IMG/VR virus record: IMGVR_UViG_3300000095_000003
Coordinates: 1 to 57,005 of that record
Direction: 5' to 3' (one strand)
Origin: a virus
Taxonomy: Duplodnaviria; Caudoviricetes
DNA: 57,005 nucleotides
Position numbers and translations under genes: made by a program. Below are positions 14,838 to 32,556 of this stretch, piece by piece; the first letter of the stretch is position 1, and each line of letters opens with the position of its first letter. Below the pieces are notes generated by a model. It worked only from the letters and a program-made list of their open reading frames with translations. It ran no database searches and was not told where the DNA came from.

Positions 14838-14916
14838 TACTTTACTTAAGATTTTTATGGATAACCTTAAAAATAAAGTAAAACCTCCACTAAAACAACC
14901 AATCTTAGTAGAGGTG
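14838..14916 (-). ncRNA. two-hairpin kissing-loop motif, copy A
   Basis: ACCUCUACUAAGA-UUGGUUG-UUUUAGUGGAGGU, short U linker, hairpin 2 with loop AUCCAUAAA. Confidence 0.75.
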
Positions 14917-14939
14917 AAAAGAAATTAACTGTCAGAGAA

Positions 14940-15290
14940 TTATCTAGGCTTTACTAATACCTTCCACCACTTAGGTGATTTTATTAATTCAATTGCAACG
15001 TTACTTACATTATTTGCATCTTCACAAGCCTTTTTCCAACAATCTTCATAAGATACAAAGACTCTATTTATTTCAGTATTAAAAGTTTCACTTGATACTG
15101 TAAAAGAGCTATGTTCTATTCCCTTCTTAGAAAGTTCTAAAAAACCTCTATCTTTTTCCCCTACTACAAACTGAGGTATTACAACAAAAGAATAATCACC
15201 TAAATCTATATCATCTGGAATTGCTTGACATAAAGCGTAATCTTTACGAAGAAACTCATTAATATTTACTGGAACGGTTGGAACTATCAT
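14940..15290 (-). CDS. hypothetical protein
   Basis: AAGGAGA RBS, co-oriented. Confidence 0.6.
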   Translation of the reverse strand: MIVPTVPVNINEFLRKDYALCQAIPDDIDLGDYSFVVIPQFVVGEKDRGFLELSKKGIEHSSFTVSSETFNTEINRVFVSYEDCWKKACEDANNVSNVAIELIKSPKWWKVLVKPR

Positions 15291-15346
15291 GATATTCTCC
15301 TTTAATTATGTATTTGAACTTAGTGAAGGTAATAACGTCCCTAGAA

Positions 15347-15634
15347 TTACAACAACTCTAAGGACTTGATATGAAGAGTTACCGCATTTACTACATTGTT
15401 TAAGCAGTAAGGAGTTATGCCCTTCTTTCTCATTCTATTATAGAGATTTGCTACCTTATTACCTGTCTCTAAATCTCCAATAGAAAGGTAAGAGATAACA
15501 TTTGAACTATCTATTTCTTCTTTTTGAGATATAACTTTTGCACTAATTCCATTTTCTCCACTAATTAAAACTACTGCATTTTCCGTATTAGTTTTAGGCA
15601 AAGATACTGTCCATTTCCAAGTTCTAGTCAACAT
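15347..15634 (-). CDS. hypothetical protein
   Basis: AGGAGG RBS. Confidence 0.6.
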   Translation of the reverse strand: MLTRTWKWTVSLPKTNTENAVVLISGENGISAKVISQKEEIDSSNVISYLSIGDLETGNKVANLYNRMRKKGITPYCLNNVVNAVTLHIKSLELL

Positions 15635-15650
15635 AATCTAACCTCCTAAG

Positions 15651-15689
15651 AAAATAAGAAAGGCTCAGAAAACTAAAACTTCTAAGCCT
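15651..15689 (-). terminator. intrinsic terminator
   Basis: AGGCTTAGAAG/TTTCTGAGCCT stem followed by TTCTTATTTT. Confidence 0.6.
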
Positions 15690-15700
15690 ATAAGAACTAT

Positions 15701-16441
15701 CTACTGAATATCAAACGTGTGATACAAATCTAACAATAATAGAAATCCTCTAGCTTCTTTTCTACCATCCAAATCAGAAATGGAAGATAAAGAACCTGAT
15801 TCTAGTAATTTCTGTATTTTCTTAACTAAATCACCACTAATAGCTGTCATCCCTCTTCCAAGAAACTCACTTGCTCTTACTATATCTTTGAATTTTTCGA
15901 TATCTCCAGACTTTAAATCTTTTTGGACTTGTTCTGGTATATTTTCCCATAGTTCTTGTTTTTCTGATAATTTAGAAAATGACTTAGTAATAATTTCAAC
16001 AGCTATAACTATTGTAGAGGGAGAACTATTAGTAGAAAGTTCTTTAGTAGGTGGAGTATAGTCTTCTTGAATTACTACTGTCAAATCTAAACTTTCTAGT
16101 CGGCTAACTATATCTTTTACTAGCTCCATCATTTTTTCCTTATTCTTACCAACTAATCTGTGACGAGAACCTTCTATATAAAACTTATTCTCATATCTAG
16201 GGTTTAGTCCTTCTTCGATAGTAATTTGGTCAGTATCAACTTTCCCAGTCAAAAGCTTAGACATTACTACCATCTTTGCTCCTAACTCCTCACTTGCATA
16301 ATGCACTGGTAGCTCGTATTCTTTCTCTAGTATAGACAGTAAATTTCTAACAACTCCATATTTAGAAGGACTGGTATTGATAATAAAACTTTCACTGTCA
16401 ATATGAGTAAACTGAACATCACTTCTTTCTAAAATAGCCAT
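15701..16441 (-). CDS. hypothetical protein (start moved to MAILE)
   Basis: upstream TTG extension is a low-complexity T-rich tract. Confidence 0.55.
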   Translation of the reverse strand: MAILERSDVQFTHIDSESFIINTSPSKYGVVRNLLSILEKEYELPVHYASEELGAKMVVMSKLLTGKVDTDQITIEEGLNPRYENKFYIEGSRHRLVGKNKEKMMELVKDIVSRLESLDLTVVIQEDYTPPTKELSTNSSPSTIVIAVEIITKSFSKLSEKQELWENIPEQVQKDLKSGDIEKFKDIVRASEFLGRGMTAISGDLVKKIQKLLESGSLSSISDLDGRKEARGFLLLLDLYHTFDIQ

Positions 16442-16526
16442 AGTTTTTAAATAATATAAAGTACAAATAAAGAAAAAAGAGAAGATAGTAAGAAATATAC
16501 TACCTTCTCTCATTAAACTCAAACTT

Positions 16527-16940
16527 TTACAGATGTAGATAAATTGAAGCTAAAAACATTGCTTGAGTAAATTCAACCTCTTCCTTCTGTCTAAGTGAGC
16601 CTAAATCTACATCTAGAAGAGAATTTAGATATCCAATGACAAATGGAATAAGAACATATTCACTAAACTTCTTACTAATCCAAGTCTTATTTGCTAACCT
16701 CTTCTTACTTGTTTCTTCAAAATCTTCCATTAATTCAGGAATTGAAGAGTATTCCTCTAAAGTTTTGCTCAACTGCTTCTTCTCTAAACGAACAAATAAT
16801 CCTTTCAGAATGCTACAGACTTTGGGATTGTTGAGCATTAGATCGAAAAACATTCTAGTCTTTTCTGACTTTGACTTCAGGTAAGAATGAATACCTTCTT
16901 GAGTTACAGGATACCAATATTGTTCGGTTTCATTAGTCAT
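16527..16940 (-). CDS. hypothetical protein
   Basis: AAGGAGA RBS. Confidence 0.6.
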   Translation of the reverse strand: MTNETEQYWYPVTQEGIHSYLKSKSEKTRMFFDLMLNNPKVCSILKGLFVRLEKKQLSKTLEEYSSIPELMEDFEETSKKRLANKTWISKKFSEYVLIPFVIGYLNSLLDVDLGSLRQKEEVEFTQAMFLASIYLHL

Positions 16941-17006
16941 TTGATTTTCTCCTTAATTTAGTGATGTCATATTTTTTAATTCTCAATCATTAAATAAAAG
17001 AGAATA

Positions 17007-17579
17007 TTACACTTTCCTCTTATAAGACACTAGATAATCGTGCATTCCAAACCATTGAGGAATATCTATAGAATGTATTTTTTCCCATTCTTCTTCTAGT
17101 AAATCAAAGAAATTACCATCTCCAGTACATCCTTCAGAACCTTCTCCCACAAAAATTACTTGATTACCTTTATAAGCTTTTAGACAATCATAAGCAAAAG
17201 AAGTATTATAAGGTGGCCAACAAAGAAATAAAGTATGGTTAGGATAATTAGCTAATATATCAACTGAATTAATCTTAGTGATTTCGTACTATTGATTTTT
17301 ACACCAATGATTATCATAAGGGGATTCATCAAAAGCTATAACTTCTCCACCTGAATCACTTATTAGTTTAGACCAATATCCTGTACCTGCTCCCATCTCA
17401 ATTATTGGAGATTGAGATACTAAATAATCAATAGCTTCTTGATTTGGTATTGCCCATGAATAATGCTTAGTTAATGCAAACCTTTCTTTAGACCCCACAC
17501 AATGATAGAGGTCATTATATTTTCCTTGCTCAAACTCTTCTAAATATGGATTAGCTATTTTAATTTCAGTACAAATCAT
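17007..17579 (-). pseudogene. class I SAM-dependent methyltransferase-like gene interrupted by one in-frame TAG (17289-17291)
   Basis: YSWAIP, IIEMGAGTGYW before the stop; same frame continues YEITK...LFLCWPPY...IFVGEGSEGCTGD...IPQWFGMHD to TAA at 17007. Confidence 0.75.
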
Positions 17580-17591
17580 AGTAATTTCTAT

Positions 17592-17656
17592 AAGCCATCA
17601 TCAGAGTAGACATTATCTACTGACATCCTAACTGAGAAGCTAAGATGTTTCGGCTT
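17592..17656 (-). ncRNA. type II hammerhead ribozyme
   Basis: AAGCC-GAAA-CAUCUUAGC(loop)GUUAGGAUG-UC^AGUAGA(UAAUG)UCUACU-CUGAUGA-U-GGCUU: full core, three stems, GUC cleavage triplet. Confidence 0.9.
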
Positions 17657-17659
17657 TTA

Positions 17660-18556: not shown

Positions 18557-18658
18557 GTTGTTCTCCTTAGCTAAAAGTTTTGCAACTGCAATAAGTAATG
18601 TTGATTAGATAAGTAGTTAGTAACCTCCTACTAATGAGAAAGATTCGACAAAACTTGA

Positions 18659-18847: not shown

Positions 18848-18909
18848 TTGTTTTGTCTCCTAAATAAGTAAAGTTGAGTGAAATTGGGTTAGCCACTTCT
18901 CGCGTTGAG

Positions 18910-19284: not shown

Positions 19285-19317
19285 AATACTCTCCTTAATT
19301 AATGTGTACTCTTTTCC

Positions 19318-20332: not shown

Positions 20333-20359
20333 GATATTCTCCTAAAGTTAAAGTGAAAT

Positions 20360-20405
20360 GTTCTACTTAGGACTTCAACCTAAGAGTGAGGCAAACTCAT
20401 AGAAC
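20360..20405 (-). ncRNA. three-way junction with T-loop arm (J1)
   Basis: GUUCUA-[UGAG UUUGC CUCA]-CU-[CUUAGG UUGAAGU CCUAAG]-UAGAAC. Confidence 0.55.
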
Positions 20406-21665: not shown

Positions 21666-22076
21666 TTAAGACTCCGCTAAACGTTTGTACACTTCTTCTC
21701 TTTCTTTTTCTGAATCTAGATAACATTGATAGGCTGAATAGTCTTCTTTCCCTCTCCAATTAAAAGACCAATTTACAGGTAATTCCTCATAACTAAGGTT
21801 CAATAATTTTCTAATAGAGGTAGCACGATAATATTCGCAATCAACTTTAATATATAGACCATTATCTTCAAAATAATAATCTAACTCTTTTTCATAAGCT
21901 GCTCTATCAAAATGCTTAAAAACTTCTGCTGGATAATACGTTTTACCAAACATTTTTATAGGTAAAGCAAAATAACTATTTAAATGTCTATCAAACATTC
22001 CCTCCATATCTACTCTACTTATGGGTTTTAATCTTCTTTTTATTTCTATGCACTGAGATTGAGTGAGATTTAACAT
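21666..22076 (-). CDS. hypothetical protein
   Basis: co-oriented ORF. Confidence 0.6.
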   Translation of the reverse strand: MLNLTQSQCIEIKRRLKPISRVDMEGMFDRHLNSYFALPIKMFGKTYYPAEVFKHFDRAAYEKELDYYFEDNGLYIKVDCEYYRATSIRKLLNLSYEELPVNWSFNWRGKEDYSAYQCYLDSEKEREEVYKRLAES

Positions 22077-22085
22077 TTTTATCCC

Positions 22086-22127
22086 AAAAAAAATAAAAAA
22101 CTCCCCAGACCTAGGATCTAGAGAGTT
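22086..22127 (-). terminator. intrinsic terminator
   Basis: AACTCTCTAGAT/GTCTGGGGAGTT stem followed by long T run. Confidence 0.75.
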
Positions 22128-22151
22128 GATTAACTACTAAAAAGTGAAAAA

Positions 22152-22439
22152 TTAAGATTTGCTAGGTATTAAGTTTACTAATCTTAGAAAGAATCGATTA
22201 GCAAAGCCAGTAATATCTAACTGAAGTGTCTCTTCTAACTCTAAAGTACAATGAATAGCCTCATCAATCTGCTGCATAATACTCTCTAAATGTCCTTTGC
22301 TATCTAAAAGAACTAAAATCTCTAGTAACTCAGGATTATCTAGAGTTTCTCTTAATCTAGAAAATGTATCGTCAATGTTTTGATACCTTGAAAATTCATC
22401 AGCTAACAATTCGTAAGATTTTCGACGGATAATATACAT
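22152..22439 (-). CDS. hypothetical protein
   Basis: GGAGA RBS. Confidence 0.55.
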   Translation of the reverse strand: MYIIRRKSYELLADEFSRYQNIDDTFSRLRETLDNPELLEILVLLDSKGHLESIMQQIDEAIHCTLELEETLQLDITGFANRFFLRLVNLIPSKS

Positions 22440-22534
22440 GGTAATTCTCCAAAAAACTAAATTTACTCAAAAAACACACACAAAAAGCTAAAATCTTGTG
22501 CTTAACCTTGATTTTTTAGTCAAAATTTAGACAC

Positions 22535-22571
22535 AAAAAGCGCCCCTATCCCGGTTAAAGGATAAGAGCGC
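22535..22571 (-). terminator. intrinsic terminator
   Basis: GCGCTCTTATCC/GGATAGGGGCGC stem followed by TTTTT. Confidence 0.8.
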
Positions 22572-22614
22572 GACCGACTAGGAGGAAAAACAAGAGAAAT
22601 TGAGAACTAATTGT

Positions 22615-23400: not shown

Positions 23401-23551
23401 TGTTTGATCCTTTGTGAGTGTTTGCGGTTTTCCTACTTAGGTGTAGGTTTGAGAGCCTAAATCACTTAATAGTTAGGTAGGATTTTATTCCCGTTATTAA
23501 GTTATTAGGGATGACTGAGACAACTTACCAGGTATATCCCAGCCGAGAAAA

Positions 23552-26500
23552 CTAAACTAAATCATTAGCTAAGCTCTTGATAGTGTCTAGCTCGTCATGT
23601 AAAGAAGTTAGATGCTTCTTGATGTCTCTATCTTTGCTATACTCTCTTAACCAATGGTAGAGCATTGAGTATAAGCTACCTTTCTCTGGGCTAACTCTAT
23701 CTCCAATTTCTTTCTGAAGTAGAGATTCAATCCCCGAAATCACTGTTTTACCTTTATCAGTTGGATGAGGTAGCCTAATATTATCTCGGATTACTGAGAT
23801 TAACTGAATCTTAATCCGATGTTCCCATCTTTCTATATCATTGGTGTAAATAGTCCAAGGTGTGAGGATGACACCATTAGAACATCGAAAACCAATAGAT
23901 AAACCAGAGAGTTGATAGAAAGTATCAATTAAGTCACCCCAGACAAGTGAGTCTAGCTGTGGGTTTCTATCCAATAGATTGTGAACATTTAACATCAATT
24001 TAGCAGGATTCTTTTTCCCTACTGACTGACCGCCGAGTATAACCTCTAAATCATCTTTCTGAGTCCACTTTTTCCAATTAGCGGTTATCTTCTCTAGTAA
24101 ATGAGTGCTGTCATGCTCAGAGTAAGGTTTTAAAGTTGTGAGGTCTATTACCTTCCCTAGATTGACTGCACTCTCAGAAGTGAAAGGGCGAATAAACTTG
24201 AGGAAGGTTTTCTTAATGGCAGAGTAACCATGACCCGTATCTATAAACCCTGCAACTTGAGTAACCTTTGTAGGAGTAGTGATTTTACCTTCACCTACTA
24301 AAGCAGATCTATTAGCAGTGATATATTTGTTAATCACTTTTCTAAGTTGAGATTCAGAAAAGTTAACTAACTCCATCTCATCTAAAGAACATCTTAAGAG
24401 AGCGCGAAACACCTCTTTGTTGTTGTGTTCGTTAAAAGCAGTTGTAATTGCTAATCGAGTCGGTACAATGCCGTAGTTTCTATCGTGCTTCTCTATCTCT
24501 CCTTTCTCATTCTTTTTCGAGTATCGTTGCTCTGTATTTGCAGGGTCTATAATATCTAAGTGATGCTCAGATACTACTTGACCTTTATGCTCTATTTCAA
24601 TGTAGATTCCTTTCCGTCTCTTGTCATAATAAACAGAAAGCTTACACCCAAAGTAATTGAAAGTTGACTCTAGATAATTTCTGATCTCACGGATATCTGG
24701 CTTTTTAATTCCAAAATACTCTCTGAGATTGTACGTTACCCGCCTAATCCAATTTAAAACACTCGGAAGATTGTGTCGAATCAATGCAGCGTCATTTGTG
24801 GATTGATTAGTCAGCTTATAAGTGTATTTCTGATCCTCCACTTCTTCCACCACTGACACCTTCGCTAACTCATAAAATCCGTAGTAAGGATTAGTAGAGC
24901 TAGTTAAAAATTGAGCTTGCTTAAGTCTTTCTTTGAGTTTATTCTTAGACTCTAGAAAGTTTTTAGGGTCAATCTTCTTCTCTGTTACTAATCCATCAAG
25001 TAGATTAGTCAACATTGAGATTAAAGACGTTCTAGGAATCCCGCCGTAAAATTCAGATGAGATGTTCTTGAGTCTCTGGATTTCTTTATGCAGATAAGAG
25101 ATACCAGATAATCGAGGGACGTTTCCTGCTATGTATCTTGCTAAGTGATAGCAGTAAGAGTCAGGTAGTTTAACAGGTAGAGCAGTTAGAGTGTACCCCG
25201 TAATTGATGGATTCAGCTTTAGAAGACATGGGACAGTACCAATCACATCATAGAACGTAGCAGAACCCGATACAACTTTCTCATTCTCTAACTTGATTGG
25301 CTTAGGAGTCTTTCTCTCAGTCTTTTCTACTCTCTTAACTTTCTTAGTAGTGTCAGGAGGGGGAGGAAGTACACGATTGAACGTTACGGCAGGATGGTAG
25401 AATGAGGACTCAATTCTCTCTGGTACTTCTGTAGCTTCATCATAAGGATGTTTAACCCCAAACTTGTCTACAAAATAAGAGCGCATCTTGGTTCTATAAA
25501 TGTGACGCTCAGGTGGGTCTTTAGGGTTCTCACATTCTAGAGTTTCGAGCTTTACTTGATTAATGGATTGACTCGGAAATATCTTTACTCCATCTACCTC
25601 AATTAAGGGACAAATCTCGTGTAAATCTTGCTCGTGAGTCTGTAGATCATTGTAATAGAGTAATTGACCGCCATCAAACAAAGCTATCCGTCGAGATTTC
25701 TGTTGATAAAAGTTGGTGTCAGTCTTCTCAATGTACTCTTGTACTAGATATGTTTGTCCGTCTATCTCTTCTTTGATTGGAGTTATAAGCCAGATATTAT
25801 CTAACTCCGGGATGGATACTCTCTTATTACGTTGGATGCTTCCCTTACCCCTTGGTCTGATCTCTGCTACTCCTTCAGATGCTTGACCTTTCTGCCTTAA
25901 CTGCTTTGAGACTTTTTTGACTTCTATTGTCTGATTGTGGTAGCTCTCCTTATTGACGATAGAGTTTTTGATTTTCTCTAACTTGCGGAATTCAGTAGGG
26001 TCTAGAGTAGCCTTGAGTTTATCGAAGAGAATGTCATCAATTCTAGAACACTTAAGCTCATCACACAGTGCTTTAGTTTCTCTCAATAGATAAGTATCAA
26101 GAGTTATATTTTCTGTAGTTTCTACATCTTGAACATACCAGACAATTGGAGGATTCAAGTAGAGCGTCAAAGCGTTATGTGGAGTGTTATCTAGTGCTAC
26201 TTTAAACTCTCTCAACTGTTCCGTTACAAACAGCCATCCAGTGAGTAAAGGAGTGATTTTAGACAGAGATACATCAAGACGTTTTTTGATTTGTCTACCT
26301 TCAGAATTTGGTAATGAGATGTATACTCCCATCGGCTCAGGAATGACAAGAGGTTCAGTGTCTTCTGCTACTGGTACAATCTCAAAAGTAGTTTTAGTTA
26401 CTTCTGAGATGTAAGCAGTGTCCAATTCACCTTCCTCTACAACTACTGATGACGATTCAATAATCTCTGGGATTTCTGAAGATTCGTTGATTTCTTTTGG

Positions 26501-26947
26501 AGATTCGGAGATTGATTCAACTTGCTCCAAGATTTCAGGCTCTAGAGTATTATCTTCTGCTACTTCGATGGTTTTTGTAGTATTCTCTAGAGGTTCTGCG
26601 GGTTCTGTTTTTTCCTCTATAGCTAGAGGCGATAATACCATTACTCCATATACCCAATTGTTAGATACAGAAGTAAAATGCAGAACAGAGTCTAAACTCA
26701 CAGAGAAGTTCTTAGCGTCGGGAAATCTATTGCAGATATTCTTTTGTATTGGATGAAGATAACCGATGATTTCGGGTTCTTCTCCACTAACTTTTACTGT
26801 GACTTCCTTATCCTCAGCTTGAATTGATGTAGTGAATTTGATGTAATGAACAGTTTGAGAAAATGCAGAAAGATTGAGACAAGAGACTAAATACTCAGCA
26901 CAAAGTTTCTTAGTCTTCACTAAGTTATTAGGTAACATGACGAACAC
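23552..26947 (-). CDS. large hypothetical protein (1131 aa)
   Basis: long uninterrupted ORF; no motif recognised. Confidence 0.7.
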   Translation of the reverse strand: MFVMLPNNLVKTKKLCAEYLVSCLNLSAFSQTVHYIKFTTSIQAEDKEVTVKVSGEEPEIIGYLHPIQKNICNRFPDAKNFSVSLDSVLHFTSVSNNWVYGVMVLSPLAIEEKTEPAEPLENTTKTIEVAEDNTLEPEILEQVESISESPKEINESSEIPEIIESSSVVVEEGELDTAYISEVTKTTFEIVPVAEDTEPLVIPEPMGVYISLPNSEGRQIKKRLDVSLSKITPLLTGWLFVTEQLREFKVALDNTPHNALTLYLNPPIVWYVQDVETTENITLDTYLLRETKALCDELKCSRIDDILFDKLKATLDPTEFRKLEKIKNSIVNKESYHNQTIEVKKVSKQLRQKGQASEGVAEIRPRGKGSIQRNKRVSIPELDNIWLITPIKEEIDGQTYLVQEYIEKTDTNFYQQKSRRIALFDGGQLLYYNDLQTHEQDLHEICPLIEVDGVKIFPSQSINQVKLETLECENPKDPPERHIYRTKMRSYFVDKFGVKHPYDEATEVPERIESSFYHPAVTFNRVLPPPPDTTKKVKRVEKTERKTPKPIKLENEKVVSGSATFYDVIGTVPCLLKLNPSITGYTLTALPVKLPDSYCYHLARYIAGNVPRLSGISYLHKEIQRLKNISSEFYGGIPRTSLISMLTNLLDGLVTEKKIDPKNFLESKNKLKERLKQAQFLTSSTNPYYGFYELAKVSVVEEVEDQKYTYKLTNQSTNDAALIRHNLPSVLNWIRRVTYNLREYFGIKKPDIREIRNYLESTFNYFGCKLSVYYDKRRKGIYIEIEHKGQVVSEHHLDIIDPANTEQRYSKKNEKGEIEKHDRNYGIVPTRLAITTAFNEHNNKEVFRALLRCSLDEMELVNFSESQLRKVINKYITANRSALVGEGKITTPTKVTQVAGFIDTGHGYSAIKKTFLKFIRPFTSESAVNLGKVIDLTTLKPYSEHDSTHLLEKITANWKKWTQKDDLEVILGGQSVGKKNPAKLMLNVHNLLDRNPQLDSLVWGDLIDTFYQLSGLSIGFRCSNGVILTPWTIYTNDIERWEHRIKIQLISVIRDNIRLPHPTDKGKTVISGIESLLQKEIGDRVSPEKGSLYSMLYHWLREYSKDRDIKKHLTSLHDELDTIKSLANDLV

Positions 26948-26964
26948 TCCTAGTTATTTAATGA

Positions 26965-27027
26965 ACAATGACTAACTAAGGCATTGCACCTTAGTAGCAG
27001 GCTTTATGAATTCACCTATTAGTTGTT
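26965..27027 (-). ncRNA. three-way junction with T-loop arm (J2)
   Basis: ACUAA-[UAGGU...GCCUG]-CUA-[CUAAGG UGCAAUG CCUUAG]-UUAGU. Confidence 0.5.
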
Positions 27028-27718
27028 AAGGCAGTAGAATCATTCGAGAATTTTTAACATCCCAGTAGTGGTCAATTAAAGTTTTAGAGTCGTGATTTTT
27101 AGCATAGTCACACTCATAATTACAGTAATCAGGTGTAAATTGTGGCTCTACTAATCCGGCGTCATACTCAACGAATCGAAAGTTGAAAGCATTAGGTAAC
27201 TCCTCTATTATGGTCTGCAAGTCCTTAAATGCAATTCGACAGACTACTTCGCTATCTCTGTGATATTTTCCCGTCTCCTTGATTACTCGGCGCATAAAAT
27301 TGTGTAATTGTACTTTATGCCCGTATTCATCCCACTTACATAGATTATTAGGGTCTATTAGATACCTAAAACCTACTCTCTTAATGGATGGAGTAGAGAA
27401 CCATATAAATGCTTTGTTCTTTTTGAATTCGTCAGTATACTCTCCAATTTGTCCCTGTATTTGCTTCCCAAACTCAATGATAGACCGCATATACTCACTA
27501 GCTTGTTCAGCACTCTTAAACTTAGTTAACTCTAGTTTTCTATGAGTCGTTTTAGGTTGAGCTAATAATACTTTCTTCGCTTGTTCGTAACACTCTGGAT
27601 TTTTTAACATCTCAATAGCTTTGTGTACTGAGCTTTTACCACCTAATACCACATCGTAAGACTTAAGTTGTTGAGATTGTCCGCCGAGAACTGCATCATA
27701 TTGTGTAGGTTGTAACAT
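27026..27718 (-). CDS. hypothetical protein with duplicated YD[AV]VLGG N-terminal motif (start moved to MLQP)
   Basis: QPTQYDAVLGGQSQQLKSYDVVLGG; track TTG start lies inside RNA motif copy B. Confidence 0.6.
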   Translation of the reverse strand: MLQPTQYDAVLGGQSQQLKSYDVVLGGKSSVHKAIEMLKNPECYEQAKKVLLAQPKTTHRKLELTKFKSAEQASEYMRSIIEFGKQIQGQIGEYTDEFKKNKAFIWFSTPSIKRVGFRYLIDPNNLCKWDEYGHKVQLHNFMRRVIKETGKYHRDSEVVCRIAFKDLQTIIEELPNAFNFRFVEYDAGLVEPQFTPDYCNYECDYAKNHDSKTLIDHYWDVKNSRMILLP

Positions 27719-27751
27719 TTGATTTCTCTGTGATTTAGTTAGTGGATAAGC

Positions 27752-27815
27752 GATACTCAATTTTATGGATGTCGAGTATCAAAGCCCTTACATAGCAACC
27801 AACTACATAAGAGCG
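27752..27815 (-). ncRNA. two-hairpin kissing-loop motif, copy B
   Basis: GCUCUUAUGUAG-UUGGUUG-CUAUGUAAGGGC-UUU-GAUACUCGA C AUCCAUAAA A UUGAGUAUC. Confidence 0.75.
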
Positions 27816-27826
27816 AGTAGATTAGT

Positions 27827-28075
27827 TTACTTTGATGTAGCTAACTTCTGTAACCAGGCTTCTTTAATTTGATTTTCTAGTCTCTCAAACTTATCAGCAG
27901 TAAGGTAGAGTTCTCCACTATGAGATTTAGTTAGAGAGTAGTTGACAGCCCCTAAATCAATAGCTAACTGATCTACCATGTCGAGATTAATACAATCTGG
28001 TAAATAGACGGCATAACGATTGTCAAAAGTTTTAGGATTATATACCATCTCAGAACGGATTTTTAGGTTATTCAT
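27827..28075 (-). CDS. hypothetical protein (start moved to MNNLK)
   Basis: AAGGAGAG RBS before ATG 28075. Confidence 0.6.
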   Translation of the reverse strand: MNNLKIRSEMVYNPKTFDNRYAVYLPDCINLDMVDQLAIDLGAVNYSLTKSHSGELYLTADKFERLENQIKEAWLQKLATSK

Positions 28076-28101
28076 GATTCTCTCTCCTTTGTGTGTACAT
28101 C

Positions 28102-28163
28102 TACCCAATTTTATCGGTATAGGGTATAAAGACCTCTGTACAGCAACGAACTATACAGAAGTG
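28102..28163 (-). ncRNA. two-hairpin kissing-loop motif, copy C (covariant loops)
   Basis: ACUUCUGUAUAG-UUCGUUG-CUGUACAGAGGU, hairpin 2 UACCC..ACCGAUAAA..GGGUA. Confidence 0.75.
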
Positions 28164-28169
28164 ATGAGA

Positions 28170-28397
28170 TTAGATTTCAGATATTGCTACTTTTGACCAT
28201 CTATGGATTTTAACCACTCGACAATCAGAGGGAATTTCAATCCCGTACTTTTTCCAGTGATTAGGTGATGTTCTTAAGTCAGCATCTCCCATCCATTCTG
28301 ATGAGGTAAAATCTCCTTCAACAGTCATTAAAAAATTATCCGCATTCCTAATCACTGCATAACAATCTTGCTCGTTATCTTTGTAAATTTCTTGCAT
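28170..28397 (-). CDS. hypothetical protein
   Basis: AGAGGA RBS. Confidence 0.6.
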   Translation of the reverse strand: MQEIYKDNEQDCYAVIRNADNFLMTVEGDFTSSEWMGDADLRTSPNHWKKYGIEIPSDCRVVKIHRWSKVAISEI

Positions 28398-28424
28398 GAG
28401 TTTTTCCTCTTGTGTACGTTAACA

Positions 28425-28487
28425 GATACCTAGCTTTAGGATGTAAGGTATCAATACCTCTAGAAGATAACCACAAATCTAGAGGTG
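28425..28487 (-). ncRNA. two-hairpin kissing-loop motif, copy D
   Basis: ACCUCUAGAUUU-GUGGUUA-UCUUCUAGAGGU, hairpin 2 GAUACCU..AUCCUAAA..AGGUAUC. Confidence 0.7.
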
Positions 28488-28498
28488 GAAAAAGTGTA

Positions 28499-28786
28499 TT
28501 AAGTAAAACGAATCGTATCCCCACCAGAGAAATAATAGATTATAGTGCCGTTGTACTTCTTTTTTCTTTCTAAAATCTGACCGATGTATTGTAAATAAGT
28601 TAGCTCTAAAGCTTGACCTACATTACTAGATGGGAATACTTCTTTATGCTCTAATCCACCTTTCATAAATACAAAAGCGAAATAGTACGGAGTAGGGAAA
28701 TCAGATAACATTCCAGGTACATCTGCACTTGCACCAAATTCAAAACGGACTAGCTTGGCATTTACACAATTTTGATTAGTTTCCAT
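28499..28786 (-). CDS. hypothetical protein
   Basis: co-oriented ORF. Confidence 0.55.
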   Translation of the reverse strand: METNQNCVNAKLVRFEFGASADVPGMLSDFPTPYYFAFVFMKGGLEHKEVFPSSNVGQALELTYLQYIGQILERKKKYNGTIIYYFSGGDTIRFT

Positions 28787-28801
28787 TTATTTTGTTAGCC
28801 C

Positions 28802-29089
28802 TTAATGAGTAAGTTTTGAAAGACTCTGATAAATCCCCAGAGACCATAATCTGTTGAATCTTTCTGAGATTTTCTTAGCTTGTGCTTCATCATCCGCTAG
28901 GTATCTCATCTTCTCACCATTACCTGCCGGAGCAAAATACCAACTCCTACTATCCTCTGTCATCTCACCACCTTGACAATTAGTGATTATACTCGCTACA
29001 TAATGACTAGGGCAATGTCTTTGATAATGCTGTTCATTCCAATATACATCCTTTACAATGACTGCAAATTCAGAACTTTGACTGCTCAT
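28802..29089 (-). CDS. hypothetical protein
   Basis: AAGGAG RBS. Confidence 0.6.
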   Translation of the reverse strand: MSSQSSEFAVIVKDVYWNEQHYQRHCPSHYVASIITNCQGGEMTEDSRSWYFAPAGNGEKMRYLADDEAQAKKISERFNRLWSLGIYQSLSKLTH

Positions 29090-29110
29090 TTTTAACTCCT
29101 TTTAATGTAC

Positions 29111-29189
29111 ACTACTTTACAACTACTCTTTAGGATAAGTAGCCTAAGTAGTAAAACCCTCTACCAGCTAACCAAACTAATAGAGGGTG
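29111..29189 (-). ncRNA. two-hairpin kissing-loop motif, copy E
   Basis: ACCCUCUAUUAGU-UUGGUUA-GCUGGUAGAGGGU, hairpin 2 GGCUACUU-AUCCUAAA-GAGUAGUU. Confidence 0.75.
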
Positions 29190-29213
29190 AAAATATGAGA
29201 GAGTAAGTAAAAG

Positions 29214-29414
29214 CTACTCTAGCATCATATTAATGATTCGGGATTTTAACTTAGCTAACTCTTCAAAGTAATTAGCATTATTAATCTTGTCACGTAGCTT
29301 GTCTAAATCTTCCTCAGTAACTTCTTTGCGCGGACTTAATGGATATTGCGGTGAAGGTATCGGTTGTTTAGTAGTCCAAGGTGTGGGTTTTCCGGGGTCA
29401 TTAATTTCTGCCAT
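29214..29414 (-). CDS. small hypothetical protein
   Basis: AGGAG RBS. Confidence 0.55.
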   Translation of the reverse strand: MAEINDPGKPTPWTTKQPIPSPQYPLSPRKEVTEEDLDKLRDKINNANYFEELAKLKSRIINMMLE

Positions 29415-29473
29415 TGTTCTTGCTCCTAGTTTGTGTTGTTAGATGCTTTTAGTAACTCCGGGCTGAGAATTGA

Positions 29474-30103
29474 TTAACCGCAGTAATTACTATTTTCTGG
29501 GCAATTTACCCAAGCCCAACCACTACCACAAGTACATAAGCGGTTATTAGGATTAGTTGTGAAGCTGTCATCGCTAACCCCTTGACTTGAGATTGTACGA
29601 TATAGACTTTCCTCATCATCGCCTTTCAGAACCTCACCGAATAGCACCAACTCCCCCAACTCTTCATCAAGACAGACAAAAACATTCGCCTCACTAGAAT
29701 TAAGAATTAAGCGAGCTTTAGACAGTAAATGATCTAGCTGTCTCAATTCATCTTGAGTGAGAGTAGATGGTTGTACGTTGACTTTAATCTCAGTATCCTT
29801 TGCTGCTTTCTGAAGCTTGACTACTAAATGCTCGGCTTCATCAAAGGTGAGAAAAGCATCAACAAAGTTTTTAAGTGCGTTGGAAATCAAGAAATACTCT
29901 GGATTTTTACCAGTAACCCTTGAAATTCCGTAAATGCTAAAGCCACCATTTAAGCCCCCAGTTTCTTCTAAGATATACATTGATTGATAAGGCGAGGGAA
30001 CTTGTCGCACCTTACTAATCACTAAGTCTTTCTCTCTCACAATAAAATCCGGATTTCCAATCATCTCTCTAGCAGCTTGGTCAAAATCAAAAGGTTGATA
30101 CAT
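29474..30103 (-). CDS. hypothetical protein with C-terminal SEC-C-like Cys motif
   Basis: LCTCGSGWAWVNC...YCG. Confidence 0.55.
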   Translation of the reverse strand: MYQPFDFDQAAREMIGNPDFIVREKDLVISKVRQVPSPYQSMYILEETGGLNGGFSIYGISRVTGKNPEYFLISNALKNFVDAFLTFDEAEHLVVKLQKAAKDTEIKVNVQPSTLTQDELRQLDHLLSKARLILNSSEANVFVCLDEELGELVLFGEVLKGDDEESLYRTISSQGVSDDSFTTNPNNRLCTCGSGWAWVNCPENSNYCG

Positions 30104-30155
30104 GGAAACCTCTAAAAATCTAAGTGTGTGAATTACCTGATAAGAACTACCAGGA

Positions 30156-30226
30156 ATACTTAAACTGGGAATCGAACCCAGTAGAGTAGTTATTAGTTAC
30201 TCTTTCCACCGTTGGATTTTAAGTAT
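30156..30226 (-). ncRNA. miniature tRNA-like element T1
   Basis: AUACUUAAA A UCC AACGGU GGA A AGAGUA(9 nt)UACUCU A CUGGG UUCGAUU CCCAG UUUAAGUAU. Confidence 0.8.
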
Positions 30227-30563
30227 ACAAAGGCTTTTTGATGATTAACTCGGCTAACTCTATTGCTTGATATTCGTTATCTGCAAAACCTCTATAGTTA
30301 TTATGCTCATCTAACACTAGATATTTAAGGTTAGTGTTAGTAACAATAGATTTGTGAACTGTAGCGATTTTGTACTTGGCAGTCTTATCGTCGGTGTGAT
30401 ATATAGTAGATGAGAGAATGTACAAAGATTTGAGGTATTCGGGATAACGACCCTTAACTACATTGATAACCTTGGGTAGTTTAGAGAATAGTAGATCTTT
30501 AATTGCTTGGGCTGTCTCTCTACCAATAAGGGTATAGCCATCATCAGTTATAATCTCAATCAT
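30219..30563 (-). CDS. hypothetical protein
   Basis: AGAGG RBS; stop codon overlaps T1. Confidence 0.6.
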   Translation of the reverse strand: MIEIITDDGYTLIGRETAQAIKDLLFSKLPKVINVVKGRYPEYLKSLYILSSTIYHTDDKTAKYKIATVHKSIVTNTNLKYLVLDEHNNYRGFADNEYQAIELAELIIKKPLYT

Positions 30564-30600
30564 TTTGACCTCTTATTACCTGGGATAAATTACCAGGAAG

Positions 30601-30664
30601 CGCCTAATCTAGAATCGAACTAGATAACTAACTTAGAGCTAGTCGCCACCATTGACTTTAGACG
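30601..30664 (-). ncRNA. miniature tRNA-like element T2
   Basis: CGUCUAA A GUC AAUGGU GGC GACUAGC(5 nt)GUUAGUU A UCUAG UUCGAUU CUAGA UUAGGCG. Confidence 0.8.
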
Positions 30665-30693
30665 GGTTTAGTAGAGACAATAGGATTCCTGTA

Positions 30694-31113
30694 CTAAGCA
30701 AAAATTATTCGATCTTTGACATTTGAGTTGTACTGGGAGTTGAATAGCTGTATAAGTTGATTAATTTCGTAGTGCTTAAAGTCAGTTGAATTAGTAGATA
30801 GGTAATACCCTTTACCTGCTATAGTGTAATTTTCTGTTAACCATTGTTCAAACTCATTTGATTTTTGTTTTCTTTCCAACCAATCCTTAATAGCTACCCA
30901 ATCTACTCTTTCTTCTAGGGCAATGTTAATTAGAGCTAATGCGGCATCTGCTATAGATTGAGGTCTGAGTGTATTAATCATATAGTCAGAAAACAAATCT
31001 TTTAACTCTTTTTCATTGAGAGAGTAATAGCAATGTAGACTATCTTTCTCATCGTTTAACCAACATATAACTAATGCGGTTTCTTTGCTTGTGGTTTGTG
31101 TTTGAGTAGACAT
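30694..31113 (-). CDS. hypothetical protein
   Basis: co-oriented ORF between T2 and T3. Confidence 0.6.
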   Translation of the reverse strand: MSTQTQTTSKETALVICWLNDEKDSLHCYYSLNEKELKDLFSDYMINTLRPQSIADAALALINIALEERVDWVAIKDWLERKQKSNEFEQWLTENYTIAGKGYYLSTNSTDFKHYEINQLIQLFNSQYNSNVKDRIIFA

Positions 31114-31160
31114 TTGACAAAGAACTTAGAGTGAATTAGTACACTGTTCTCTAAGTAAAA

Positions 31161-31226
31161 GCTCAGTTACGAATTGAACGTAATGATAAACCTTTGATTG
31201 ATTTATCCCCACCATTGAGTCTGAGC
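31161..31226 (-). ncRNA. miniature tRNA-like element T3
   Basis: GCUCAG A CUC AAUGGU GGG GAUAAAUC(7 nt)GGUUUAUC A UUACG UUCAAUU CGUAA CUGAGC. Confidence 0.8.
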
Positions 31227-31235
31227 AACCTTTAA

Positions 31236-31469
31236 CTATTTCTCAACTAAAACATACCGATACTGAGTTTTAGATATTTCTTCGGGAATGTAGCTATACC
31301 CAAGTGCCTCTGCTCTAGTTAAGAGTCTATTACGATAATCAAGTAATTCACCTAGTCTCAGTCTCGCATCTGCTTTCTGTTGACATTCTGGTTTACCGAA
31401 CCATTGCGTGAGTATTTCTGATTCTTTCTCACTAATGCTATTTAGCTCTAGTTGTATCTGCTGTTTCAT
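31236..31469 (-). CDS. hypothetical protein (start moved to MKQQ)
   Basis: AAGGAGAG RBS before ATG 31469. Confidence 0.6.
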   Translation of the reverse strand: MKQQIQLELNSISEKESEILTQWFGKPECQQKADARLRLGELLDYRNRLLTRAEALGYSYIPEEISKTQYRYVLVEK

Positions 31470-31512
31470 TGTTCTCTCCTTTGATAACGTCACTCTGTAT
31501 TGAGTAACAAAA

Positions 31513-31558
31513 CTTAGATGGGGAGTTGAACCCCACAACTAATGAAATCGTGCTTAAG
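31513..31558 (-). ncRNA. degenerate T-arm junction element (J3)
   Basis: perfect T-arm UGGGG UUCAACU CCCCA; flanking stems weak. Confidence 0.45.
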
Positions 31559-31757
31559 AATTTAACTTGTCCATAAACTCTTGTATTTCTTGCTGCTCTA
31601 GCTCCTGTAAAAACAATTCCCCATCATGCACAAGGTTTTTGAGATTAGTATCAGTGAGAGCTTTAAGCTTTGCCATTAACTTTTTAACGTCTGGATACTC
31701 ACTCTGTAATGTTTCATAGCCCGGTGTAACTTCAGCTATTGCATCATCTAAACTCAT
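31554..31757 (-). CDS. first small ORF of the leftward unit, hypothetical
   Basis: GAAGGAGAG RBS. Confidence 0.6.
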   Translation of the reverse strand: MSLDDAIAEVTPGYETLQSEYPDVKKLMAKLKALTDTNLKNLVHDGELFLQELEQQEIQEFMDKLNS

Positions 31758-31804
31758 ATTCTCTCCTTCGTGTTTGTGTGTTACTTCCCATTAGTAGGAA
31801 GAAA

Positions 31805-32049
31805 ACCGATTTAAGGAATTGCACCTTACACTCTCAAAATAGTTTAGTAGACTTTCCTTTGCACTCTACTATCTAACTATTACCATACTGTCACTAGGTA
31901 ATATAAGTTAAAATCCCCTAAACTTTTTAGATTGGCTAGTTAGTATCGTGCGAATAGAATCGATATACCATCCTCTATGGCTTAACCGTTCGCTACATAA
32001 TCCCTAGTTACTACGGGGTAACTTTTTTGACAAGTGGACTATCATCGGT
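31805..32049 (-). ncRNA. ~245 nt structured RNA closed by a stem and T-loop arm
   Basis: ACCGAU/AUCGGU closing stem, CACUUGUCAAAA/UUUUGAGAGUG helix, AAGUUA/UAACUU, several inner hairpins, UAAGG UGCAAUU CCUUA arm. Confidence 0.6.
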
Positions 32050-32053
32050 ACGC

Positions 32054-32072
32054 TATTTAATTATCAAGGTTC
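32054..32072 (-). promoter_or_regulatory. rRNA-operon-type boxA antitermination element
   Basis: GAACCTTGATAATTAAATA; one mismatch to cyanobacterial ITS boxA GAACCTTGAAAA; preceded by hairpin CTTG-ATAATTATGA-CAAG. Confidence 0.65.
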
Positions 32073-32225
32073 TGAGCTTGTCATAATTATCAAGAATCCT
32101 TCGTTAACTGAATGCTTTGCCAGTAACTACAGATGCTAGTCAAAAAATGTTAAGCGAGATATTTAATTTGCTTGACCTTAGCTATTGATGTGACTATCTT
32201 TGTTAGATTGACGCGGTAACAGCTA

Positions 32226-32318
32226 TGGAGGTAATCAACTTACTCTCAGACTTTTCTCAAGCAACATAGGATTAACCTATCTGATTTCAGAAGCACTTAA
32301 ATTTGGAGGTAATCAACT
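32226..32318 (-). repeat. 15-nt perfect direct repeat AGTTGATTACCTCCA (x2)
   Basis: plus strand TGGAGGTAATCAACT at 32226-32240 and 32304-32318. Confidence 0.85.
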
Positions 32319-32550
32319 CATTATGAGCCAACTTTAGAAGTAGTAGAGGAAATGCTACATAGGCAAGAACTCCTAGATTAATCCCTTATCAGTATAGGTA
32401 AGGAGACTAGCTCGATATCCTATATTTGAAAGGGTAGATCGGGAAAACGACTGGCGTTAGTCCGTCTCTGGGTTTAATTTCTCGCTCACTGGGAGGGAGT
32501 AGTGAAGATTGGATTAGCTTTAAGTAGCTTTCTCTTCCCTTCATGTATCT

Positions 32551-32556
32551 ATTATA
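32551..32556 (-). promoter_or_regulatory. candidate -10 element (TATAAT) for the leftward unit
   Basis: TATAATAGATACATGAAGGG on minus strand; no canonical -35 at 17 bp. Confidence 0.45.

What the first reader, a model, noticed from the sequence alone, without database searches (positions are those of the whole stretch)
14838..32556. RNA-punctuated early operon: antiterminated leader plus four classes of intergenic structured RNAs
Seen, in transcription order: candidate -10 at 32551, ~790 nt ORF-free leader with boxA and a large fold, then J3, T3, T2, T1, motif copies E, D, C, B, J2, J1, hammerhead, copy A. Each sits between a stop codon and the next gene's start, and classes cluster by position. 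Stems vary in sequence while loops and geometry are kept. Inference: one rRNA-operon-like long transcript is cut or stabilised gene by gene by host tRNA-processing enzymes and self-cleaving RNAs, a post-transcriptional programme encoded in spacers. I do not recognise this combination as a described system.
Basis: partly seen in the sequence, partly recalled or inferred. Interest (0 to 1): 0.9.

Follow-up and report, generated by a model that had tools for sequence, protein, structure and literature searches.

The report
tRNA-like punctuation in phage operon
A block of unknown phage genes has spacers filled with conserved tRNA-shaped RNA folds, paired hairpins and one hammerhead ribozyme, most likely signals by which host tRNA-trimming enzymes and self-cleavage cut long messages into single-gene pieces.

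Summary
The structured spacers are real; the transcription model built on them is only partly right. The window is a fragment of an uncultured phage of about 150 kb. T1-T3 are cloverleaf-like tRNA mimics that no tRNA finder accepts. Related elements lie on the gene strand, mostly upstream of a conserved 1131-aa gene, in all 7 genomes of the clade, with compensatory changes in every helix. Motif copies A-E are a 13-14 bp hairpin, an N-U-U linker and a second hairpin. This is the same junction as tRNA-like element, discriminator, UU, hairpin, Shine-Dalgarno, start, so these two classes are one architecture. The phages' own tRNAs are CCA-less and also have U after the discriminator. My best reading (0.55) is that RNase Z, perhaps with RNase P, cuts there and the second hairpin caps the new 5' end, as at plant-mitochondrial t-elements. 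The hammerhead is a type II variant with an extra U after CUGAUGA. Six other viral contigs carry it, with 104 of 104 cells paired. Not supported: the boxA, the -10 box and the leader fold. Four or five intrinsic terminators argue against one long transcript. No RNA data were available, so cleavage remains inferred.

The parts
31758..32550 (-). ORF-free leader of about 790 nt. Only blocks of it are conserved (32053-32145 here; 32612-32830 lies upstream of it). No fold signal.
31784..31828 (-). 3' end of the leader. A T-arm-like hairpin TAAGG-TGCAATT-CCTTA (31812-31828) is followed by hairpin CTTCCTACTAATGGGAAG (31784-31801) and then the Shine-Dalgarno site. The same second hairpin follows tRNA-like element 'a' of relative G003.
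31489..31536 (-). J3: T-arm-like hairpin GTGGGG-TTCAACT-CCCCAT (31518-31536) and a second hairpin (31489-31508).
31125..31227 (-). T3: tRNA-like cloverleaf (31159-31227) plus a downstream hairpin (31125-31155).
30579..30664 (-). T2: tRNA-like cloverleaf (30600-30664), discriminator C, UU, then hairpin CCTGGTA..CCAGG (30579-30597).
30136..30224 (-). T1: tRNA-like cloverleaf (30157-30224), discriminator A, UU, then a hairpin (30136-30154). The acceptor stem overlaps the upstream stop codon.
29107..29192 (-). Two-hairpin motif, copy E.
28421..28491 (-). Two-hairpin motif, copy D.
28097..28165 (-). Two-hairpin motif, copy C.
27749..27817 (-). Two-hairpin motif, copy B.
26972..26997 (-). J2 (my assignment): hairpin CTACTAAGG-TGCAATG-CCTTAGTTAG just upstream of the 1131-aa gene. 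It is present at this position in 4 of the 5 relatives (G001, G003, G004, G005).
23552..26947 (-). 1131-aa protein with no family match. It is conserved (26-32% identity) in all relatives and anchors the synteny of the RNA elements.
23445..23548 (-). Conserved two-domain structured element of about 105 nt, directly after the 1131-aa gene.
22540..22571 (-). Strong intrinsic-terminator-like hairpin (13 bp, 7 G-C pairs, then TTTTT).
22099..22127 (-). Second terminator-like hairpin with a long T run.
20359..20405 (-). J1 (my assignment): 47-nt mini tRNA-like element with a 7-bp acceptor stem, a small hairpin and a T-arm with loop TTGAAGT. It differs at 1 nt in G003.
17592..17656 (-). Type II hammerhead variant. 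Stem II AAGCC/GGCTT, GAAA, stem III 11 bp, GUC, stem I 7 bp, CUGAUGA plus an extra U. The predicted cut lies between 17622 and 17621.
16477..16511 (-). Terminator-like hairpin.
15661..15689 (-). Terminator-like hairpin.
14834..14919 (-). Two-hairpin motif, copy A, upstream of the MoxR-like ATPase gene. Its orthologue is in G003.

Best explanation
The region is a block of small, fast-changing phage genes of unknown function, probably early or host-takeover genes. They are read in at least two or three transcription units.

Most spacers carry a punctuation cassette with a fixed layout:
1. A mimic of the top half of a tRNA. This ranges from a full cloverleaf (T1-T3), through mini forms without an anticodon arm, down to a bare 13-14 bp hairpin (hairpin 1 of motif A-E).
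2. One discriminator-like base followed by UU.
3. A second hairpin.
4. 10-35 nt holding the Shine-Dalgarno site and the start codon.

I infer that the host's tRNA 3' endonuclease RNase Z cuts after the discriminator base. RNase P may also cut at the 5' side. The downstream message would then start with 'UU + hairpin', which would protect the new 5' end. The upstream message would keep or lose the tRNA-like cap.

One spacer uses a self-cleaving type II hammerhead for the same purpose.

Shown here: the structures, their conservation and covariation, and the fixed geometry. Inferred: which enzymes act, and that cleavage happens at all.
For: (1) Family. T-arm-like hairpins with paired flanks recur 2-5 times per genome on the gene strand. 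Most lie upstream of the 1131-aa gene, in the window and in 5 relatives. A descriptor (T arm, acceptor at least 6 of 7 pairs, U after the discriminator) gives 28 hits against 2.8 in shuffles; with 7 of 7 acceptor pairs it gives 15 against 0.33. Only 7 of the hits are ARAGORN tRNAs, and all 7 lie far from this block.

(2) Covariation. Model R2, built from 7 elements, finds 4 more at E below 0.05 in 715 kb. A true tRNA-Met scores only 19.7 bits. Over 11 rows, 97.1% of cells pair and 13 of 16 pairs show changes on both sides; slid controls give 23-44%.

(3) Two-hairpin motif. Over 10 rows, 96.9% of cells pair and 18 of 20 pairs change on both sides; slid controls give 37-48%. 26 of 192 cells are G-U pairs, which fits folding of the sense-strand RNA. 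One of the 10 rows is in fact a tRNA-like element plus its hairpin, so hairpin 1 occupies the tRNA-like position.

(4) Geometry. In 22 of 22 tRNA-like elements the base after the discriminator is U. In 18 of 22 the next hairpin starts 1-3 nt after the discriminator. All 5 window copies of the motif have an N-U-U linker.

(5) Internal control. All 7 true tRNAs of these phages lack an encoded CCA and have U after the discriminator. RNase Z cuts CCA-less precursors right after the discriminator (PMC8549757, passages read).

(6) Held-out genome. L177 was used for no model. It has 3 R2 hits and 2 R1 hits at E below 0.01, all on the strand of the big gene. All 3 R2 hits are followed by N-U(U/A)-hairpin-SD-ATG.

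(7) The anticodon arm is absent or replaced in orthologues, so the elements do not decode.

(8) The elements are better conserved than the genes. Only 5 of 11 ORFs between 27.0 and 31.8 kb have any tblastn hit in the relatives, while the spacers match at 75-91%.

(9) Hammerhead. The homologues also sit between genes.
Against: - There are no RNA ends. No sequencing run was listed, so cleavage is untested.
- The host is unknown.
- The 5' side shows no RNase P preference; position +1 is often A or C.
- The T1 acceptor stem overlaps the upstream stop codon, so a cut by RNase P there would leave a message without a stop codon.
- Hairpin 1 loops (TGGTT) and hairpin 2 loops (ATCCATAAAATT) are conserved between copies whose stems differ. 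A pure cut-and-cap model does not explain this; it suggests a bound protein or a tertiary contact.
- Hairpin 1 of copy A also passes a terminator scan.
- Whether bacterial RNase Z accepts a bare 13-bp hairpin is recalled from work on other systems and was not checked here.
- Both covariation alignments were fitted to the models, so they lean towards the modelled structures.
Confidence: 0.55

Rival explanations
1. The cassettes act on transcription. Hairpin 1 or the tRNA-like fold is a weak terminator or pause. The second hairpin region carries a phage-specific promoter or an antiterminator RNA of the HK022 put type (two stem-loops). Each gene would then be its own unit, as with the promoter-stem-loop cassettes of T4-type phages.
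For: Hairpin 1 is G+C-rich at its base and is followed by 2-4 U. Copy A passes the terminator scan. Canonical terminators occur in the same block. The elements are conserved while the genes between them are exchanged, as described for T4 PeSL cassettes (recalled, from no call). The conserved hairpin 2 loop contains TAAAAT in copies B and C.
Against: 4 of 5 hairpin 1 copies fail the terminator criterion. Sigma-70-like sites are not enriched: 54 found against 64 in shuffles, and none in these spacers. In copies D and E the loop reads TAAAG, without the final T of a -10 box. Compensatory changes with many G-U pairs point to an RNA fold rather than a DNA sequence signal. A tRNA elbow (D-loop GG plus T loop) is not needed for termination.
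Confidence: 0.12
2. The elements are binding sites for a phage or host RNA-binding protein, for example a translational operator or a chaperone. The conserved loops would be the recognition elements, and no cleavage is needed.
For: Loop sequences are conserved across copies with unrelated stems (A against B). The elements sit 10-35 nt upstream of start codons.
Against: This does not explain the tRNA-like elbow, the invariant U after the discriminator or the similarity to the trailers of the phages' own tRNAs. Second-hairpin loops differ widely among the tRNA-like cassettes.
Confidence: 0.12
3. The tRNA-like RNAs are the product. Small stable tRNA mimics are released from the transcript and act in trans. 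They could serve as decoys for host tRNA-targeting defence nucleases, or as sinks for tRNA-processing or CCA-adding enzymes.
For: Acceptor stem, D-loop GG and T loop are kept under selection. The block looks like a host-takeover region: 20 of 20 ORFs have no informative PHROG function. A stable excised t-element RNA is reported in plant mitochondria (PMC1920247, passages read).
Against: Many copies lack any anticodon arm, which is the usual target of anticodon nucleases. This reading does not explain the obligatory second hairpin or the bare-hairpin variants.
Confidence: 0.08
4. The elements are decaying tRNA pseudogenes and repeat scars that serve only as recombination linkers between gene cassettes, with no function as RNA.
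For: The genes between the elements differ among relatives while the elements persist. T1 still scores 21.3 bits with the Rfam tRNA model.
Against: Pairing is kept through changes on both sides in 13 of 16 and 18 of 20 pairs. The T loop is invariant, the spacing is fixed, and the elements recur in all 7 genomes. Neutral decay would not preserve any of these.
Confidence: 0.06

Closest known systems
t-elements and acceptor-stem-like stem-loops of plant mitochondrial mRNAs (Forner et al. 2007, PMC1920247; abstract and passages read)
   Same: Both are non-canonical cloverleafs with a conserved T arm, or simple stem-loops, placed at mRNA boundaries. In mitochondria they are read as signals for RNase Z (5' ends of the downstream mRNA) and RNase P (3' ends of the upstream mRNA).
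   Different: Those elements are in an organelle and are scattered singly. Here they sit in a bacterial virus, as a graded series with a fixed N-UU-hairpin-SD module repeated between successive genes. Cleavage is not shown here.
tRNA punctuation of animal mitochondrial transcripts; mascRNA at the MALAT1 3' end (both recalled, from no call)
   Same: tRNA or tRNA-like folds direct RNase P and RNase Z to cut a long transcript.
   Different: The mitochondrial case uses real, decoding tRNAs. The elements here do not decode, and many lack an anticodon arm.
RNase III processing sites of the phage T7 early transcript; SP82 early RNA in Bacillus (recalled, from no call)
   Same: Hairpins between phage early genes direct a host endonuclease to cut a polycistronic RNA and leave protective hairpins at the new ends.
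   Different: RNase III sites are longer irregular duplexes. Here the fold is tRNA-like or a 13-14 bp perfect hairpin followed by N-UU.
Type II hammerhead ribozymes, Rfam RF02276 (Perreault et al. 2011, PMC3088659; abstract and passages read)
   Same: [quoted passage not shown] The CUGAUGA, GAAA and GUC core is present. The ribozyme sits between phage genes. That paper already proposed that such ribozymes cut long phage transcripts into gene-length mRNAs.
   Different: All 7 members found here carry an extra U after CUGAUGA and a stem I loop TAATG. They score below the Rfam gathering score: 3 of the 6 other members reach 26-31 bits against 37, and the window copy gives no hit. The usual pseudoknot of 4 or more pairs between loop I and the 3' tail is doubtful here.
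Promoter-early stem-loop (PeSL) cassettes of T4-type phages (recalled, from no call)
   Same: Conserved short regulatory cassettes separate variable small early genes and may mediate shuffling of those genes.
   Different: PeSLs are a sigma-70 promoter plus a stem-loop. No promoter consensus is found in these spacers.

Membership tests
tRNA (Rfam RF00005 / ARAGORN) | Score at or above the curated threshold of a tRNA model | tested here: not met
   ARAGORN at default finds 0 tRNAs in the window and in 10 relatives' loci. With the Rfam tRNA model, T1 scores 21.3 bits against a gathering score of 29, and T2 and T3 give no hit at E up to 10. No Rfam hit reaches gathering in the relatives' blocks.
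tRNA (Rfam RF00005 / ARAGORN) | Acceptor stem, D arm with GG and T arm with loop TTCRANY | tested here: met
   MFE cloverleafs. Covariation in all three helices: 97.1% of cells paired.
tRNA (Rfam RF00005 / ARAGORN) | Anticodon arm with a 5-bp stem, a 7-nt loop and U33, conserved among orthologues | tested here: not met
   T2 has a 3-nt loop. T3 has an 8-bp stem and A at position 33. Orthologues of T3 have no such arm or a different hairpin.
t-element-type processing signal (RNase Z / RNase P substrate) | tRNA-like or acceptor-like fold at a gene boundary, with a CCA-less trailer like those of genuine tRNAs | tested here: met
   22 of 22 elements have U after the discriminator. So do 7 of 7 true phage tRNAs, and none of those encodes CCA.
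t-element-type processing signal (RNase Z / RNase P substrate) | RNA ends map to the edges of the element; the element is cut by RNase Z or RNase P | not testable with these tools
   No sequencing run was listed. Enzyme assays are needed.
Hammerhead ribozyme, type II (RF02276) | Core of CUGANGA, GAAA, A15.1-U16.1 and a cleavage triplet NUH, with three stems abutting the core | tested here: met
   CUGAUGA, GAAA, A-U, C-G and GUC are present; stems are 7, 5 and 11 bp.
Hammerhead ribozyme, type II (RF02276) | No insertion inside the core | tested here: not met
   There is an extra U between A9 and G10.1, shared by all 7 members. An extra base at this position occurs in the viroid CChMVd, and U there raised the cleavage rate 3-4 fold according to a review (PMC3705267, passage read).
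Hammerhead ribozyme, type II (RF02276) | Rfam gathering score (37 bits) | tested here: not met
   The window copy gives no hit at E up to 10. Three of the 6 other members score 31.3, 27.3 and 26.4 bits.
Hammerhead ribozyme, type II (RF02276) | Stems supported by covariation among homologues | tested here: met
   Over 7 rows, 104 of 104 cells pair and 10 of 15 pairs change on both sides; slid controls give 23-42%. Pairing in stem I was not forced by the search pattern.
Hammerhead ribozyme, type II (RF02276) | Pseudoknot of at least 4 bp between loop I and the tail 3' of stem II (in most members, per PMC3088659) | tested here: inconclusive
   Only UAAU/AUUA is possible in the window, and only AAU/AUU in L180, at different distances from stem II.
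Hammerhead ribozyme, type II (RF02276) | Self-cleavage | not testable with these tools
   An in vitro transcription assay is needed.
boxA / Nus-dependent antitermination leader | A boxA consensus conserved in relatives downstream of the promoter | tested here: not met
   The boxA-like string at 32144-32158 lies in a gap of the alignment with G003.
Intrinsic terminator (for hairpin 1 of motif A-E) | A G+C-rich stem followed by at least 5 T in 8 bases | tested here: not met
   Only copy A passes, 1 of 5.

The most novel reading that the evidence does not exclude
A clade of uncultured phages of about 150 kb has turned the top half of a tRNA into a modular punctuation cassette (tRNA mimic, N-UU, hairpin, Shine-Dalgarno site). 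The cassette hijacks the host's RNase Z and RNase P to cut and cap early messages gene by gene. It has been miniaturised stepwise from a cloverleaf down to a bare acceptor-like hairpin. The excised mini-tRNAs may themselves act in trans on the host's tRNA-processing or tRNA-targeting defence machinery. This would be the first tRNA-punctuated operon in a bacterial virus.
Probability: 0.4. Interest if true: 0.85.

Novelty: new variant of a known kind. Interest (0 to 1): 0.75.

Why it matters
tRNA-guided cutting of messages is textbook for mitochondria but is not described for phage operons in the library I searched. If it holds, it adds a third way, besides RNase III sites and ribozymes, by which phages turn long transcripts into stable single-gene messages using essential host enzymes that the host cannot easily lose.

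The graded series from cloverleaf to bare hairpin is a natural deletion series. It shows what those enzymes minimally need.

The compact cassette (about 70-90 nt) could serve as an insulator part for synthetic operons.

The hammerhead subfamily with the extra U extends RF02276, and current Rfam thresholds miss it.

Tried and rejected
- **Sequencing runs.** None was listed, and no RNA holder was listed (after a size slip).
- **Phage database.** No DNA or protein match for the block or the 1131-aa protein. The closest cultured TerL is below 30% identity.
- **1131-aa protein.** No Pfam or PHROG family. A single-sequence scan of IMG/VR found nothing. The ESM Atlas gave no usable hit. A structure job on 5 homologues was not finished at my last poll, so no fold search was made. 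Its function stays unknown.
- **First pattern scan.** A scan for the two loop sequences gave 117 or more single, chance-level hits and was useless.
- **T2-type pattern.** It found only three known relatives.
- **Hairpin 2 loop as a sigma-70 -10 box.** Rejected: the spacing to any -35-like hexamer is wrong, and copies D and E lack the final T.
- **Loop-loop kissing between hairpins 1 and 2.** UGG:CCA becomes UCG:CGA in copy C. This rests on one event, shared with the related copies in G005 and L177. The stems differ in length. I set it aside as unproven.
- **T1 or T3 as real decoders or suppressors.** Rejected: the anticodon arms are not conserved.
- **Hammerhead in close relatives.** The orthologous spacer of G003 is about 50 nt and has none, so the window copy is a lineage-specific insertion.
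- **Supplements.** The supplements of PMC10690425, a catalogue of 8495 candidate structured RNAs from IMG/VR, could not be opened. Some of these motifs may already be listed there.

Full report
**What the window is.** The window is a whole IMG/VR virus record of 57,005 bp, judged 19% complete. It carries a large terminase at 51607-53190 and an RNA ligase at 1466-2620. No cultured phage is close: TerL identity is below 30%, and the block has no DNA match.

TerL led to five related records, G001-G005. Four of them are 130-151 kb, two of these with terminal repeats, and the fifth is 81 kb. I fetched all five almost whole. A seventh genome fragment, L177, came later through the 1131-aa protein. 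I kept L177 out of all model building.

**The observation.** From 14.8 to 32.5 kb all genes lie on the minus strand.
- 20 of 20 tested ORFs have no informative PHROG match.
- 7 of the 10 proteins scanned against Pfam had no hit; these include the six longest ORFs between 15.7 and 30.1 kb.
- By my greedy ORF call, 21 of 33 gaps are at least 56 nt here, against 12 of 73 elsewhere in the window.
- ARAGORN finds no tRNA.
- Rfam finds nothing at gathering score.
- Even so, the spacers fold well. T3, T2 and T1 give cloverleafs (z -4.4, -2.5, -2.6). Motif copies B and A give two hairpins (z -4.7, -5.7). The hammerhead gives its three-way junction (z -4.1).

**tRNA-like elements.** A scan for T-arm-like hairpins found them clustered on the gene strand, mostly upstream of the conserved 1131-aa gene, in all six genomes.
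- A fuller descriptor gave 28 hits against 2.8 in shuffles. With a perfect 7-bp acceptor stem it gave 15 against 0.33.
- Only 7 hits are tRNAs by ARAGORN, and these lie elsewhere in the genomes.
- The elements keep the acceptor stem, a small D arm with GG in its loop, and a T arm with loop TTCGATT.
- The middle part ranges from an anticodon-like arm to nothing, giving lengths of 41-89 nt.
- Model R2, built from 7 of them, found 4 more at E below 0.05 in 715 kb. It scored a true tRNA-Met at only 19.7 bits.
- Over 11 rows, 97.1% of cells pair and 13 of 16 pairs show changes on both sides. Slid controls give 23-44%. This alignment is fitted to the model, so it leans towards the modelled structure.

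**The two-hairpin motif.** Model R1, built from copies B, C and D, recovered E and A. It also found copies in G005, G003 (two) and G001.
- Over 10 rows, 96.9% of cells pair and 18 of 20 pairs change on both sides. Slid controls give 37-48%.
- 26 of 192 cells are G-U pairs, so the fold belongs to the sense strand.
- One of the ten rows is really a tRNA-like element with its downstream hairpin.

That row prompted the main unifying observation. In 22 of 22 tRNA-like elements the base after the discriminator is U. In 18 of 22 a second hairpin starts 1-3 nt after the discriminator. The Shine-Dalgarno site and start codon follow 10-35 nt later. All five motif copies in the window have the same N-U-U linker between hairpin 1 and hairpin 2.

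Hairpin 1 is 13-14 bp in 4 of 5 copies. That is close to the 12-bp acceptor/T-stem stack of a tRNA.

The phages' 7 real tRNAs encode no CCA and also have U after the discriminator.

The held-out genome L177 shows the same picture. It has three R2 hits and two R1 hits at E below 0.01, all on the strand of the big gene. All three R2 hits have the N-U(U/A)-hairpin-SD-ATG layout.

**Mechanism.** RNase Z cuts CCA-less tRNA precursors directly after the discriminator (PMC8549757, passages read). That it prefers a following U is my recollection of Pellegrini et al. 2003, which is not held in the library.

In plant mitochondria, non-canonical tRNA-like t-elements and even 'acceptor-stem-like stem-loops' mark mRNA ends made by RNase Z and RNase P (PMC1920247, abstract and passages read).

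I therefore read the cassette as a processing signal. The cut falls after the discriminator, and the downstream message begins with UU plus a hairpin that shields its 5' end. This is inference; no RNA data could be had.

Points that weigh against it:
- The conserved loops of hairpins 1 and 2 are not explained.
- There is no RNase P signature at the 5' side.
- T1 overlaps the upstream stop codon.

**The hammerhead.** At 17592-17656 the core is canonical apart from one extra U after CUGAUGA.
- A descriptor search gave 0.1 hits per 715 kb of shuffles. It found no comparable copy in the five relatives.
- The orthologous spacer of G003 lacks it.
- Rfam gave no hit even at E up to 10.
- Two pattern scans of IMG/VR then found six unrelated, mostly G+C-rich viral contigs with the same variant.
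- The second pattern did not force pairing in stem I or in the 5' strand of stem II. Yet all six hits pair fully.
- Over 7 rows, 104 of 104 cells pair and 10 of 15 pairs change on both sides. Slid controls give 23-42%.
- Three of the six reach 26-31 bits with RF02276, whose gathering score is 37.
- One contig has a canonical type III hammerhead about 220 nt away.
- An extra base at this position is known from a viroid hammerhead, and U there raised the cleavage rate 3-4 fold according to a review (PMC3705267, passage read).
- Perreault et al. already proposed that hammerheads flanking prophage genes cut long transcripts into gene-length mRNAs (PMC3088659, passages read).

I put the chance that this is a working ribozyme at about 0.85.

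**What fails.**
- The leader has no fold signal (z -0.16).
- Its boxA-like string and the TATAAT at 32551-32556 are not conserved in G003.
- Conserved blocks lie at 32612-32830 and 32053-32145 instead.
- Sigma-70-like sites are not enriched.
- Terminator-like hairpins on the gene strand lie at 22540-22571, 22099-22127, 16477-16511 and 15661-15689. These split the region, so 'one long antiterminated transcript' is not supported.

**Other conserved spacers.**
- A T-arm-like hairpin lies upstream of the 1131-aa gene at 26972-26997. It is present in 4 of the 5 relatives aligned; G002 does not align.
- An element of about 105 nt follows the gene at 23445-23548. It has 27 predicted pairs, 3 of them with compensatory changes, in 3 sequences.

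**Elements and genes.** The elements outlast the genes between them. Only 5 of 11 ORFs from 27.0 to 31.8 kb have any tblastn hit in the relatives, while the spacers match at 75-91%. This fits cassettes that also ease gene shuffling.

**Novelty.** Searches for tRNA-like punctuation in phages found no such description. A catalogue of candidate structured RNAs from IMG/VR mentions tRNA-like motifs without this reading (PMC10690425, passages read).

I rate the finding a new variant of a known kind, with interest 0.75.

Noticed in passing
window 17007-17579 (-), stop codon at 17289-17291: A 190-aa methyltransferase-like ORF (my reading of its GAGTGYW motif; it was not run against Pfam) is split by an in-frame TAG. 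The 84%-identical orthologue in G003 has TGG (Trp) there. The cause could be a pseudogene, a sequencing error or a suppressed stop. It lies directly downstream of the hammerhead.
   Followed up: partly
window 22000-33000 against the rest: G+C content is 35-40% from about 22 to 33 kb, against 27-33% in most of the rest of the window. The half rich in tRNA-like cassettes is compositionally distinct from the rest of the phage.
   Followed up: no
window 32053-32145 (-): A conserved leader block (83% identity to G003) contains two copies of CTTGATAAT about 30 nt apart. This may be an operator or a promoter element.
   Followed up: no
window 32560-32720 (-): A long C/T-rich tract lies in the divergent region between the minus-strand block and the plus-strand gene at 32806-33474. 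Most of it (32612-32720) is about 90% conserved in G003.
   Followed up: no
window about 20333-20358 and 18848-18880 (-): Two 5' UTRs share ATTTCACTnnAACTTTA just upstream of the Shine-Dalgarno site TAGGAG.
   Followed up: no
window 28097-28165 (C); L144 18647-18715; L177 8170-8238: In these copies the hairpin 1 loop reads TCG instead of TGG, and the hairpin 2 loop changes CCA to CGA or CGT. This hints at a loop-loop contact, but it probably reflects a single evolutionary event.
   Followed up: partly
G002 about 85585-85661 (-), locus L160: A tRNA-shaped element with an encoded ACCA tail lies directly upstream of tRNA-Gly. ARAGORN at default does not call it.
   Followed up: no
L182 5366-5420 (-) and 5088-5152 (-): A canonical type III hammerhead (50.9 bits) and the type II variant lie about 220 nt apart on the same strand of an unrelated viral contig. 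This is a ribozyme pair flanking a short segment.
   Followed up: partly
window 12230-14801 (-): A MoxR-like AAA ATPase (13662-14801) is followed by a protein with a weak von Willebrand A hit (12230-13591). Motif copy A sits just upstream of this pair.
   Followed up: no
window 41926-42960 (+): A GNAT acetyltransferase domain is fused to DUF6610 (E 6e-34).
   Followed up: no
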